The translations under genes were made by a program, and so were the position numbers. The notes below the pieces were generated by a model. The model did not search any database. It had not been told where the DNA came from and saw only the letters and a list, made by a program, of their open reading frames with translations. DNA of 64,000 nucleotides from the human T2T-CHM13v2.0 reference genome, Homo sapiens, in the NCBI RefSeq assembly GCF_009914755.1, contig NC_060926.1. One strand, written 5' to 3'. This document shows, piece after piece, positions 12,080-46,410 of this stretch; within the stretch, counting starts at the first letter, position 1; every line of letters starts with the position of its first letter.

Positions 12080-12257
12080 AGACAGATGACCTCGGTTTGA
12101 AAACTTGCACCATGTCTTAAACACTGTGTGGCTCTGGGAAAATTATTTAATATGTTTTGGTTTCCTCATCTGTAAATAGACTTAGATGATAACTGTACAC
12201 AACTCAAAGAATTGTTAAGAAGATTAAATGAGTAAAGGTTTAGAAAATGCTGAGGAC
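12080..12257 (+). mobile_element. MIR SINE, split by the L1 insertion; remainder at ~14149-14180
   Basis: gtttcctcatctgtaaa...gattaaatgag core; MIR-like 3' sequence resumes after the right TSD. Confidence 0.7.
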
Positions 12258-13653
12258 TTTGCCTACTTTTTAATGGGGTTGTTTGCTTTTTTTTCTTGTA
12301 AACTTGTTTAAGTTCCTTGTAGATTCTGGATATTAGACCTTTGTCAGATGGATATATTGCAAAAATTTTCTCCCACTCTAAGTTGCCTGTTCATTCTGAT
12401 GATAGTTTCTTTTGCTGTACAGAAGCTATTTAGTTAAATTAGATCCCATTTGTCAATTTTTGCATTTGTCGCAATTACTTTTGGTGATTTCATCATGAAA
12501 TCTTTGCCCATGCCTATGTCCTGAATGGTATTGCCTAGATTTTCTTAAAGAAGACATTCATACGGCCAACAAACATATGAATAAAAGCCCAACATCACTG
12601 ATCATTAGAGAAATACAAATCAAAACCACAATGAGATACAATCTCACACCAGTCAGAATGGTGATTATTAAAAAGTCAAGAAACAAAAGATGCTGATGAG
12701 GTTACAGAGAAATAGGAGCGCTTTTACACTATTTATGGGAATGTAAATTAGTCCAACCATTGTAGAAGATAATGTGGTAATTTCTCAAAGACCTAGAACC
12801 AGAAACACCATTTTACCCAACAATGCCATTACTGGGTATATACCCAAAGGAATATAAATCATTCTATTGCAAAGATACATGCATGTGTATGTTCATTGCA
12901 GCACTATTCACGATAGCAAAGACATGGAATCAACCCAAATGCCCTTCAGTGATAGACTGGATAAAGAAAATGTGGTACCGAGGTCAGGAGTTCGAGTCCA
13001 GCCTGGCCAACATGGTGAAATCCCATCTCTACTAAAAATATATTTTAAAAAATTATCCGGGCGTGTTGGCATGCACTTGTAATCCCAGCTAATTAGGAGG
13101 CTGAGGCAGAATTGCTTGAACTCAGGAGACAGAGGTTGCAGTGACCCAAGATCATGCCACTGCACTCCAGCCTGAGCAACAGAGTGAGACTCCGTCTCAA
13201 AAGAAAAAAAAGAAAAAAGAAGAAAAGAAAAGAAAAGAAAAGAAAATGTGGTACATATTCACCATCGAATACTATGCAGCCATAAAAAGAAGCGAGATCA
13301 TGTCATTTGCAGGGACATGGATGGAGTTGGAAGCCACTATCCTTAGCAAACTAACACAGGAACAGAAAATCAAACACCACATATTCTTACTTATAAGTGG
13401 CAGCTGAATAATGAGAACACAAGGACACAGAGAGGGGAACAACACATACTGGGGCCAGTCAGGGAATGGGGTGGGGGAAGAGAGAGCATTAGGAAAAAAG
13501 GCTAATGTATGCAGGGCTTAATACCTAGGTGATGTGTTGATAGGTGCAGCAAACCACCATGGCACATGTTTACCTACATAAAAAGCTGCATGTCCTGCAC
13601 AAGTACCCCACCCAGAACTTACAATTAAAATTAAAATTTAAAATTAAAAAAAA
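12258..13653 (+). mobile_element. 5'-truncated, 5'-inverted L1PA (approx. L1PA10-13); 12258-12546 inverted, 12547-13653 sense, with an Alu inside
   Basis: Antisense ORF2 segment then sense ORF2 end/3'UTR/A-rich tail; the two breakpoints are nearly contiguous on the L1 consensus; TSD agaaaatgctgaggac at 12242-12257 and 14133-14148. Confidence 0.9.
12979..13238 (+). mobile_element. 5'-truncated AluS inserted in the L1
   Basis: Starts at cgaggtcaggagttcgag; A/GAAAA tail; TSD aaagaaaatgtggtac at 12963-12978 and 13239-13254. Confidence 0.93.
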
Positions 13654-13664
13654 GAAGAACAGAA

Positions 13665-14020
13665 TTTTATCCAGCTAGTAGAAAAAGAAGTCAGAGAGAT
13701 TGGAGCATAAGAGCGATTCAAAAGGAGTTGCTTCATTGCTTAGATGGAGGGGGCCACATGGAAGCACCTCAAAGTAGAAGTGAAAACGAATCCAGCCAAC
13801 AACAACAGGGACCTCAGAAAAACCTACAGCAGTACGGACTGACTTCTGCCAGCAACCTGAGTGCACTTGGAAGGGGACCCTGAGCTCCAGATGAGAAGGC
13901 AGCTCCAGCTGACACCTTAATTTCAGCATTGTGAAAGCCAAGCAGAGAGCTAGCTAACCTGTACTTAGCCTCCTGACCCACAGGTACTAAGAGATAATAA
14001 ATAGATGGTGTTTTAAACTG
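13665..14020 (+). mobile_element. MLT1 (MaLR) LTR fragment lacking its 3' end, probably transduced
   Basis: ttctgccagcaacctgagtgcacttggaag...gctgacaccttaatttcagc...gagataataaatagatggtgttttaa are MLT1 motifs. Confidence 0.8.
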
Positions 14021-14132
14021 GAAAGATGGAAGGAAGGAAGGAAGCAAGGAAGGAAGGAAGGAAGGAAGGAAGGAAGGAGGGAGGGAGGGAGGGAGGGAGG
14101 AAGGAAGGAAGGAAGGAGGGAAGGAAGGAAGG
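14021..14132 (+). repeat. (GGAA)n/(GGGA)n polypurine microsatellite
   Basis: Directly visible. Confidence 0.97.
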
Positions 14133-15023
14133 AGAAAATGCTGAGGACAGCAACTAGCATGTAGAACATGTTAAAAATAGTCCTAAAGGAATAATACTTT
14201 TTATTAAAAGTTTACGGCAGGTATTATCATCTTTCCAAAGACAAGAGTCTGCGGCTCCTGGTGACAAAGGATCTGCTGAAATTCAGAAGCCTACTAAGGA
14301 TTAAAACTGATTCTAATCCAGCGATTCTGCTCCAAATTGAGCTTCCTTTTTTTTTTTTTTATTTTTCAGAGACGTTAAATTCTGTGAATTGAGTCTTCAG
14401 ATAATTTATATCTTATCGCTTATTTCATTTATATATTATGCAGCCAGTAATTGTGATACACAGAGTTTCTGTGTAATGAGGTACCTTCATCCAGCAACCC
14501 TCCATAAACATTTTAGCAAGTGTAAGATCACATACATGCAATGCATTATAGACTTCACATCCGGGTTCTGAACCCACTTTATCAGCGACACTTAAAAACT
14601 GTTCTCGGACAAGATCCCCTCTAATGAGAGCCTAAAAGACAGTTAAAAGCCGGTATTATTATAGCTGTATCTTTTATGGTCTGGAAGAAAATGAAGACTG
14701 GCTACTGAAGGTCACTCTACAATAGTTCCAGAATAACCTCCACACATCAACAGTCTGACTCTTTTTGCTGCGGCTGCAGGCTTAACAAGCATGGATGCTC
14801 TGGTCTCATTATCAAGCATTTATTTTGACTTTCCTGTGCCGAGCACCGTGTTAGGGGCTGCAAAAACAGCCTATCCTTAAGATGCTCACAGACTAGTGAT
14901 AGATATATATAAATATTTATAGAATTATAATGTAAGACCATTTCTAGGTTATTTGAGATATGGTCCAAATACCAAATTGTTTGATAGTCATTAACATTAC
15001 ATGTGGACGTACGTAGGAGTTAA

Positions 15024-45840: not shown

Positions 45841-46410
45841 TGTGTCAGTTATTATTATTGCATAACATATTACCCCAAAACTTGGCAGTTTAAAACAACT
45901 AACATTTACTATCTCATAGTTTCCATGAATCAGAAATGTGAATGCAGATTAAGTGGGTGGTTCTGCAGCAGTCTTTCACAAGCCTGTGATTAAGATGTTG
46001 GCCACAGTTGTAGGCATCTCAAACTTCCACCATAGGAGGTTCCATTTCCAAATGCACTCACACTGATGTTGAAACACCTAAGACAAATTGCTTCCAAGTT
46101 TATTCACCTAACTCTTGACTGACCACAGGTCTACTTCGAAGCTCACTCATGACGACCTGTCCACAGGGCTGCCTCATGACATGATAGCTGACTTCCCCCA
46201 GAGCAAATGAAAGAGTGTACTCATTTGCCAAAAAAGACTAAAGCAACAGCCTTTTTAAAACCTAAACTCCGAAGTGGATATCCCATCATTTCTGCCATAT
46301 TCTATGTATAAGTGAATAAATCGGCTTGCTCCCCACTCAAGAAGAATACACAATGGCCTAAATACCAGAAGGTAGGCATTATTGGGGATAAACTTAGAGG
46401 ATGTCTAGCA
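45841..46410 (-). mobile_element. MLT1F-like solo LTR
   Basis: gcataacatattaccccaaaacttggcagtttaaaacaac...catcatttctgccatattctat. Confidence 0.8.

What the first reader, a model, noticed from the sequence alone, without database searches (positions are those of the whole stretch)
12242..14148. Fossil L1 3' transduction ending at a captured MLT1 LTR poly(A) signal
Seen: the 16-bp TSD agaaaatgctgaggac (12242-12257, 14133-14148) lies about 480 bp beyond the L1's own A tail (13653). It encloses ~370 bp of MLT1 LTR that stops ~20 nt after AATAAA (13996-14001), then a purine tract; the host MIR resumes after the TSD. Established: MLT1 predates L1PA, so it cannot have inserted later, and L1 read-through mobilises 3' flanks. 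Inference: the source L1 sat in or next to an MLT1 elsewhere and used the LTR's poly(A) site, so this segment tags the donor locus.
Basis: partly seen in the sequence, partly recalled or inferred. Interest (0 to 1): 0.8.

Follow-up and report, generated by a model that had tools for sequence, protein, structure and literature searches.

The report
L1 insertion carrying a copied LTR
An old L1 jumping gene on chromosome 2 dragged along about 370 bases copied from a retroviral LTR on chromosome X; this is an ordinary, well-known kind of event (3' transduction), with the small twist that the source site carries no L1 today.

Summary
An exact 16-bp direct repeat (12242-12257 / 14133-14148; 0 of 100 shuffles give two copies) brackets one composite insert. 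Its parts are a 5'-inverted L1 piece, the sense L1 with a complete 3' end and a later Alu, a 366-bp LTR piece ending about 18-30 nt after AATAAA, and a 113-bp (GGAA)n tract.

The LTR piece has one full-length paralog, G000:C23 (chrX) 15448106-15448473, at 81% identity and as reciprocal best hit. The two group together at 99/95 and 94/94 support. The chr2 copy's private divergence (about 8%) matches that of its L1 (0.087), and is about half that of ordinary copies of this LTR family.

The chrX LTR runs on into U5. Homology begins exactly at its only TTAAAA site.

No L1 sits at the chrX site, no locus joins L1 to this LTR, and no sibling insertions were found.

Best reading: L1 3' transduction from a source L1 that was never fixed or was lost. 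A template-switch chimera is not excluded. This is a new member of a known kind and of low interest.

The parts
12120..12241 (+).
   Evidence: Two other genomic copies match at 78% and 71%. Alignment scores of 76-80 compare with a shuffle maximum of 27-30.
12242..12257 (+). Left copy of the 16-bp target-site duplication. It is preceded by TTT, so the target reads TTT/AGAAAA, an L1 endonuclease-like site.
12258..12546 (-). Inverted L1 ORF2 segment. It encodes ORF2p residues about 979-1070 on the minus strand (twin-priming inversion).
   Evidence: Minus-strand translations match L1 ORF2p (8uw3_A) at residues 979-1014 (window 12544-12437, E 3.9e-12) and 1035-1070 (window 12381-12259, E 1.3e-10).
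12547..12978 (+). Sense L1 ORF2 segment, starting at ORF2p residue 1082. About 8 codons are missing at the inversion junction.
   Evidence: Window 12547-12693 matches 8uw3_A residues 1082-1130, E 2.3e-16. Translation.
12979..13238 (+). Later insertion of a 5'-truncated Alu with an A-rich (AAAAG)n tail, flanked by its own 16-bp duplication (12963-12978 and 13239-13254)
   Evidence: (family D3). The name Alu is from recall of the sequence.
13239..13653 (+). Rest of the sense L1: ORF2 C-terminus, 3' UTR, (TTAAAA)-type end and a short A run. This is the L1's own complete 3' end.
   Evidence: 85-90% identity to the best 39 non-self hits of 8070 candidates, with an end branch of 0.087; the end resembles 19 related L1 rows.
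13654..14019 (+). Transduced piece: positions 180-547 of an LTR of about 594 bp, whose closest copy is G000:C23:15447927-15448520. The LTR's first 179 nt and its last ~47 nt are absent.
13996..14001 (+). AATAAA, the LTR's poly(A) signal. It is kept in 19 of 39 aligned family rows. The chrX copy now reads AAGAAG.
14020..14132 (+). (GGAA)n/(GGGA)n purine microsatellite in the place of the second poly(A) tail. It is not templated by the chrX LTR, which continues as LTR sequence here.
14133..14148 (+). Right copy of the 16-bp target-site duplication

Best explanation
One L1-mediated retrotransposition event (target-primed reverse transcription at TTT/AGAAAA) inserted a chimeric RNA made of L1 plus 3' flank. 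This is a 3' transduction.

Inferred steps:
1. The source L1 lay in sense orientation inside an old LTR, at that LTR's TTAAAA site. The LTR was the copy now at chrX 15.448 Mb in T2T-CHM13, or a lost duplicate of it.
2. Transcription ran through the L1's own weak terminator.
3. It used the LTR's AATAAA about 350 nt further on and was polyadenylated.
4. At the chr2 target, reverse transcription began on that second tail and copied the LTR piece, the source's genomic A run and about 1.1 kb of L1.
5. Twin priming inverted the 5'-most ~290 nt.
6. Later an Alu landed in the L1 and the terminal A tail decayed into a (GGAA)n microsatellite.
7. The source L1 allele was never fixed, or was lost, so chrX shows the empty site.

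Shown: the anatomy, the single target-site duplication, the inversion, the chrX kinship and the matching divergence. Inferred: the read-through itself and the loss of the source.
For: - One exact 16-bp duplication brackets everything. Chance expectation is 0.03, with 0 of 100 shuffles.
- The inverted and sense L1 parts are neighbours in ORF2p (979-1070 and 1082 onward). The insert's 5' edge is therefore a twin-priming product of the same event.
- The L1 3' end is complete and typical of its family.
- The LTR piece lies in the same orientation. It begins immediately after the A run and ends 18-30 nt after AATAAA.
- The window holds no other part of that LTR near the insert, so this is not a resident LTR split by an L1.
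- The chrX LTR is the reciprocal best hit at 81% over 366 nt.
- The chr2 and chrX copies form a clade with 99/95 and 94/94 support and stems of 0.063 and 0.090.
- Their identity exceeds every other pair: 82.6% against a maximum of 80.5% among 630 pairs, and 79.3% against a maximum of 71.0% among 36 pairs in the middle region.
- Private changes on the chr2 copy number 26 in 315 columns, about 8%. The L1's end branch is 0.087. Ordinary LTR copies have medians of 0.18-0.22.
- Homology starts at the only TTAAAA in the 594-bp chrX LTR. That is where a sense-oriented L1 would be expected to have integrated.
- L1 read-through into downstream poly(A) signals and the resulting 3' transduction are established (passage in PMC4859970). 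LTRs supply poly(A) signals (passages in PMC1794541).
Against: - The chrX LTR has no L1 at or near the junction point and is continuous there. Other family copies align straight across it.
- No locus in the genome joins an L1 3' end to this LTR, among 40 scored of 951 candidates.
- No sibling insertions were found.
- Private changes are uneven: 26 on chr2 against 13 on chrX, binomial p 0.053. This fits a slower X chromosome or a faster chr2 locus. It could also mean the true donor was a separate copy.
- In the 3' 190 nt the margin over the best unrelated pair is small (82.6 against 80.5%).
- The terminal tract is (GGAA)n, not A.
- The search tool scores only the best candidates, so a diverged donor could have been missed.
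Confidence: 0.65

Rival explanations
1. Template-switch chimera. Reverse transcription at the chr2 target began on a polyadenylated cellular transcript that ended at the chrX LTR's poly(A) site. At the A-rich stretch of the LTR it jumped to the poly(A) tail of an L1 RNA. On this reading no L1 ever sat in the chrX LTR.
For: - It explains directly why the chrX LTR is uninterrupted and why no L1-LTR junction exists anywhere.
- The switch point is an A run (L002:1499) that could pair with a poly(A) tail.
- L1 chimeras formed with other RNAs are documented (abstracts of PMC4476161 and PMC11838501).
Against: - The chimeras in those papers carry the foreign RNA 5' of the L1 (section titles and abstract of PMC11838501). 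None with L1 as the 5' partner was seen in what I read.
- Of five A runs of 4 or more in the chrX LTR, the boundary falls on the one preceded by TT, the LTR's only TTAAAA. An integration site predicts this; a jump does not.
- It needs two unusual steps, a jump and twin priming. Read-through is common.
Confidence: 0.15
2. A 3' transduction from a different, independent copy of the same LTR subfamily, now deleted or missed by the search. On this reading the chrX LTR is only the nearest surviving relative and does not mark the donor locus.
For: - Branches are uneven: chr2 0.139 and 0.089 against chrX 0.085 and 0.029.
- The chr2 copy keeps about 16 nt of family sequence that chrX lacks.
- The margin in the 3' part is small.
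- The search scores only the top candidates.
Against: - Both end branches are shorter than those of ordinary copies, whose medians are 0.177 and 0.218.
- Identity of 89.5% over 124 nt is far above any other pair in the middle region, whose maximum is 71.0%.
- The chr2 private divergence equals that of the L1. This is expected if the split from chrX dates to the L1 event.
- The 16-nt gap is simply a later deletion on chrX.
Confidence: 0.12
3. Unrelated neighbours: an LTR fragment and a microsatellite already lay at the chr2 site, an L1 landed beside them, and the 16-bp repeat is a coincidence.
For: No call supports this. The outgroup-ortholog test that would exclude it directly could not be run.
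Against: - The 16/16 repeat sits exactly at both outer edges, with 0 of 100 shuffles.
- No duplication flanks the L1 alone.
- The LTR piece starts at the L1's A run and stops at the poly(A) site.
- The rest of the LTR is absent.
- The piece is about half as diverged as resident copies of its family.
Confidence: 0.02

Closest known systems
L1 3' transduction (read-through of the weak L1 poly(A) signal; described in the review PMC4859970, passages read)
   Same: - A complete L1 3' end with an internal A run.
- Non-L1 flank in the same orientation, ending at a downstream AATAAA.
- A second tail.
- One target-site duplication around the whole insert.
- An endonuclease-type target site.
   Different: - The presumed donor site carries no L1 in T2T-CHM13.
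- The second tail is now a (GGAA)n microsatellite.
- The event is old: the L1 end branch is 0.087.
Transductions traced to a source L1 that is absent from the reference genome (Solyom et al. [quoted passage not shown] I saw only the title, in the reference list of PMC4859970. The paper itself is not held.
   Same: The transduced sequence maps to a locus that shows no L1 in the reference assembly.
   Different: There the source still segregates in living people and the offspring lacks L1 sequence. Here the offspring keeps 1.1 kb of L1. The source, if it existed, was lost tens of millions of years ago and cannot be recovered from human data.
Chimeric retrocopies made by template switching or RNA ligation (U6/L1 and others; PMC4476161 listing, PMC11838501 abstract and outline, PMC6789731 listing)
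   Same: Two RNAs from different loci sit in one insert with one target-site duplication and a 3' tail. No genomic locus holds the two parts side by side.
   Different: In the described classes the foreign RNA is 5' of the L1. Here the L1 is 5' and the foreign part 3', with an A run between them, which is the layout of a transduction.
Twin-priming 5' inversion of L1 (Ostertag and Kazazian 2001, title seen in the reference list of PMC4859970; the '5'-inverted' class is named in the abstract of PMC2912911)
   Same: The inverted 5' segment and the sense 3' segment are adjacent in L1 coordinates (ORF2p 979-1070 and 1082 onward). A small loss of about 8 codons marks the junction.
   Different: Nothing unusual.

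Membership tests
L1 3' transduction | One target-site duplication encloses the L1 plus the non-L1 3' segment | tested here: met
   An exact 16-mer at 12242-12257 and 14133-14148, with 0 of 100 shuffles.
L1 3' transduction | The L1 has its own complete 3' end and A run, lying internal to the insert | tested here: met
   The end at 13653 matches the ends of 19 related L1 rows.
L1 3' transduction | The flank is in sense orientation and ends 10-30 nt after a poly(A) signal | tested here: met
   AATAAA at 13996-14001. Family homology ends at about 14019-14031, while 37 other copies and chrX continue.
L1 3' transduction | A second poly(A) tail lies before the 3' duplication | tested here: inconclusive
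   113 bp of (GGAA)n stand in the tail's place. Derivation from an A tail is inferred, not shown.
L1 3' transduction | A donor locus has an L1 directly upstream of the homologous sequence | tested here: not met
   The only full-length paralog (chrX) has an uninterrupted LTR and no L1. No junction-spanning locus was found among 40 scored of 951 candidates.
L1 3' transduction | An empty site with one copy of the duplication in species that predate the insertion | not testable with these tools
   No other primate genome is held. The substitute test on two paralogous flank-repeat copies was weak.
L1 endonuclease-dependent TPRT insertion | A TT/AAAA-like target and a 7-20 bp duplication | tested here: met
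   TTT/AGAAAA at 12239-12247, with a 16-bp duplication.
Twin-priming inversion | The 5' segment is inverted and contiguous in L1 coordinates with the sense segment | tested here: met
   ORF2p 979-1070 on the minus strand and 1082-1130 and onward on the plus strand.
MLT1 (MaLR LTR) fragment | Homology to the named LTR family | tested here: inconclusive
The piece belongs to an old dispersed family with an AATAAA near its 3' end (258 and 1894 candidates).
Template-switch chimeric retrocopy | The two parts come from separate loci and are nowhere contiguous in the genome | tested here: inconclusive
   No contiguous locus was found. A lost source L1 gives the same picture.

The most novel reading that the evidence does not exclude
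The insert is not a read-through product. It is a chimeric retrocopy of a layout I did not find described: L1 RNA as the 5' partner, joined by a reverse-transcriptase jump to an LTR-terminated cellular transcript from chrX that served as the first template. That would explain why the donor LTR never shows an L1. It would also mean that some catalogued 'transductions without a source' are template switches.
Probability: 0.15. Interest if true: 0.4.

Novelty: new member of a known kind. Interest (0 to 1): 0.2.

Why it matters
The finding adds little general knowledge. L1 3' transduction, twin priming, LTR poly(A) sites and tail-derived microsatellites are all textbook. The case is a clean worked example with three modest uses.

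- The transduced tag links a chr2 insertion to one particular LTR on chrX. It shows that a donor site can still be recognised at about 81% identity.
- The donor site is empty. If read-through is right, the chr2 insert is the only surviving trace of a source L1 that was active but never fixed. Such cases could be counted to ask how much ancient L1 activity came from unfixed elements.
- It shows that an annotation listing 'L1, LTR fragment, simple repeat' as three neighbours can hide a single event.

Tried and rejected
A second call failed for a missing field and was not repeated.
- Flank continuity test, standing in for the outgroup test:
  - Only two other copies of the flank repeat were found.
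  - The right flank did not align to them better than shuffles: scores 25 and 19 against shuffle maxima of 27 and 30.
  - Only a short by-eye resemblance remains.
  - I count this as weak, not as proof.
- First trees, on untrimmed alignments:
  - They gave very uneven end branches: chr2 0.18 and 0.22, chrX 0.081 and 0.063.
  - Inspection showed that non-homologous tail columns and a misaligned stretch, where chrX has a private deletion, inflated the chr2 branch.
  - Trimmed trees are, and some unevenness remains.
- Two LTRs of one provirus, one holding the source L1: no second similar LTR was found near chrX 15.45 Mb or anywhere else. The stretch 15438000-15446426 was not read directly.
- Editing as the cause of the extra chr2 changes: 8 of the 26 private changes are G>A. 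That is too few to call.
- Four papers I wanted were not held under the ids I tried, two of which I gave from recall.
- I found no paper on this locus. Searches were about mechanisms, not coordinates, so they cannot show that it is unpublished.
Full report
**What is there**

Window 12242-14148 is bounded by an exact 16-bp direct repeat, AGAAAATGCTGAGGAC, at 12242-12257 and 14133-14148.
- These are its only two occurrences in the 64-kb window, even allowing 2 mismatches.
- Chance expectation is 0.03, and 0 of 100 dinucleotide shuffles reached two matches.
- The left copy is preceded by TTT, so the target reads TTT/AGAAAA, an L1 endonuclease-type site.

Between the repeats lie five parts.

1. 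**Inverted L1 segment, 12258-~12546.** It is L1 ORF2 on the minus strand. Its translations match L1 ORF2p (8uw3_A) at residues 979-1014 and 1035-1070.
2. **Sense L1 from 12547.** It starts at ORF2p residue 1082 and runs to the stop codon, the 3' UTR and a short A run ending at 13653.
3. **Alu at 12979-13238.** It is 5'-truncated, has an (AAAAG)n tail and carries its own 16-bp duplication at 12963-12978 and 13239-13254. It is a later, separate event.
4. **LTR piece, 13654-~14019.**
5. **(GGAA)n, 14020-14132.** Tandem Repeats Finder gives 28.8 copies at 90% matches.

The inverted and sense L1 parts are neighbours in L1 coordinates, with about 8 codons lost. This is the signature of twin priming, so the 5' edge of the insert belongs to the same reverse-transcription event as the rest. 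The L1's 3' end is complete: 19 rows of related L1 copies end in the same TTAAAA/A-rich way.

**The non-L1 piece**

- The query 13654-14020 gave 258 candidates, of which 40 were scored.
- Only two places cover its full length: the window itself, and G000:C23 (chrX) 15448106-15448473 on the + strand, at 81% over query 2-367.
- The next best hit covers only query 185-367, at 77%.

The hit on chrX lies inside an uninterrupted LTR of about 594 bp (L002:1322-1915).
- Searching back with that whole LTR gave 1894 candidates, 40 scored. The best non-self hit is the window piece, at 81% over LTR positions 180-547.
- Within the whole window the LTR matches nothing else near the insert. The only other hit is a 62-nt weak match at 45862-45923.
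- The chr2 site therefore holds neither the LTR's first 179 nt nor its last ~47 nt. This is not a resident LTR split by an L1.

The pairwise alignment shows where homology starts and ends.
- It starts directly after the L1's A run.
- It ends at about 14019, arguably 14031, which is 18-30 nt after the AATAAA at 13996-14001.
- At that point chrX and 37 other family copies continue with LTR sequence.
- AATAAA is kept in 19 of 39 aligned rows, and most others differ by one base. It was therefore the family's original state. The chrX copy now reads AAGAAG.

**Is chrX the donor lineage or just a relative?**

In the conserved 3' 190 nt:
- chr2 and chrX share 157/190 bases (82.6%).
- The 630 pairs among 36 other copies reach at most 80.5%, with a median of 69.9%. 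One very divergent row, L017, was left out of the pair count.

In the middle region:
- Other family copies do exist, but they are 67-73% identical to chrX by BLAST (168 candidates, 40 scored).
- In a joint alignment with nine of them, chr2 against the others is 53.8-60.5% and chrX against the others is 60.5-66.5%.
- The 36 other pairs reach at most 71.0%, and chr2-chrX is 79.3%.
- Over the well-aligned first 125 nt, chr2-chrX is 111/124 (89.5%).

Trimmed maximum-likelihood trees put chr2 and chrX together in both regions.

| Region | Clade support | Stem | chr2 end branch | chrX end branch | Other copies, median end branch |
|---|---|---|---|---|---|
| 3' part | 99/95 | 0.063 | 0.139 | 0.085 | 0.177 |
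| Middle part | 94/94 | 0.090 | 0.089 | 0.029 | 0.218 |

The two copies therefore share a history after the family's spread and split later.

The timing of the split fits the L1.
- The L1's own end branch in a tree with 17 relatives is 0.087.
- The chr2 LTR piece has 26 private changes in 315 well-aligned columns, about 8%.
- This equality is what co-insertion predicts. It also shows the LTR family is older than the L1.

**Where the junction falls**

The chrX LTR contains a single TTAAAA, at L002:1497. Homology to chr2 begins at its AAAA. A sense-oriented L1 integrating there would be followed, after its A tail, by exactly the sequence that follows the A run in the chr2 insert.

**What does not fit**

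- The chrX LTR has no L1. Other family copies align straight across the junction point, so the site is empty.
- A query spanning the L1 end and the start of the LTR piece (13520-13780) found either L1-only hits ending by query position 149 or the chrX LTR alone. No place held both (40 of 951 candidates scored).
- No sibling insertion carries the tag.
- Private changes are uneven: 26 on chr2 against 13 on chrX, with 7 unpolarised and binomial p 0.053. Candidate reasons are a slower X chromosome (recalled), a faster chr2 locus, or a donor that was a separate duplicate.
- chrX also has a private deletion of about 16 nt where chr2 keeps family sequence. That only means the deletion is younger than the copy.
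- The flank-continuity test was weak.

**Mechanism**

The best reading, at about 0.65, is a classical L1 3' transduction. The steps are:
1. Read-through of the weak L1 terminator (established; passage in PMC4859970).
2. Termination at the LTR's poly(A) signal (LTRs supply such signals; PMC1794541).
3. Target-primed reverse transcription at TTT/AGAAAA.
4. Twin priming.
5. Later Alu insertion and decay of the tail to (GGAA)n.

The source L1 sat at the TTAAAA of the chrX LTR, or of a lost duplicate, and was not fixed. A source missing from the reference has a modern precedent (Solyom et al. 2012; title only, from the reference list seen).

The rivals are:
- A template-switch chimera in which an LTR-terminated chrX transcript was the first template and L1 RNA the second, at about 0.15. 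It explains the empty site directly. It needs an undescribed layout, and it does not predict the TT before the A run.
- A transduction from an independent lost copy of the same subfamily, at about 0.12.
- Coincidental neighbours, at about 0.02.

**Comparison, novelty and limits**

Every component is a known kind. The specific chr2-chrX link and the empty donor site are new details, but not a new kind of thing.

I found no paper on this locus, but my searches were about mechanisms and cannot show that none exists.

No repeat library was available.

Any age in years would rest on a recalled neutral rate. At 1-2 x 10^-9 per site per year, 0.087 gives very roughly 40-90 million years. This should be replaced by the species distribution of the insert.

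**Verdict**

This is an ordinary event with a tidy twist, and interest is low.

Noticed in passing
window 12963-13254: A 5'-truncated Alu (12979-13238) with an (AAAAG)n tail sits inside the L1 ORF2. It is flanked by its own perfect 16-bp duplication, AAAGAAAATGTGGTAC. This is a second, later retrotransposition nested in the first.
   Followed up: partly
L002:1840-1850 and L002:1660-1700 (G000:C23, about 15448270-15448460): The chrX LTR has lost its AATAAA (now AAGAAG). It also has a private deletion of about 16 nt where the chr2 copy and other family members keep sequence. The retrocopy on chr2 therefore preserves older states of the chrX LTR.
   Followed up: partly
window 13654-14019 versus L002:1499-1868: Private substitutions are uneven: 26 on the chr2 copy against 13 on the chrX copy (p 0.053), with G>A the commonest chr2 change (8 of 26). 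The cause is not settled. It could be X-linked slowness, a local rate difference, an intermediate donor, or editing.
   Followed up: partly
L059 and L007 (G000:C6 about 41997826 and G000:C1 about 241973466): Two other copies of the LTR family are each interrupted by what looks like the start of an Alu, within about 20 nt after their AATAAA. This is the same T/A-rich stretch where the chr2 piece ends, and may be a favoured L1-endonuclease target in this LTR.
   Followed up: no
window 14020-14132: A long (GGAA)n/(GGGA)n microsatellite (28.8 units) stands where a retrotransposon tail should be. Tracts like this are variable in populations, and I recall them as binding sites for EWS-FLI fusion proteins. 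Nothing was tested.
   Followed up: no
window 45862-45923 (-): A weak 62-nt match (77%) to the 3' end of the same LTR family, probably another old fragment.
   Followed up: no
G000:C23:15853267-15853613 (-): One of the closest relatives of the chr2 L1 (87% over 346 nt) lies about 405 kb from the chrX LTR, on the opposite strand. It is probably a coincidence among thousands of copies and was not examined.
   Followed up: no
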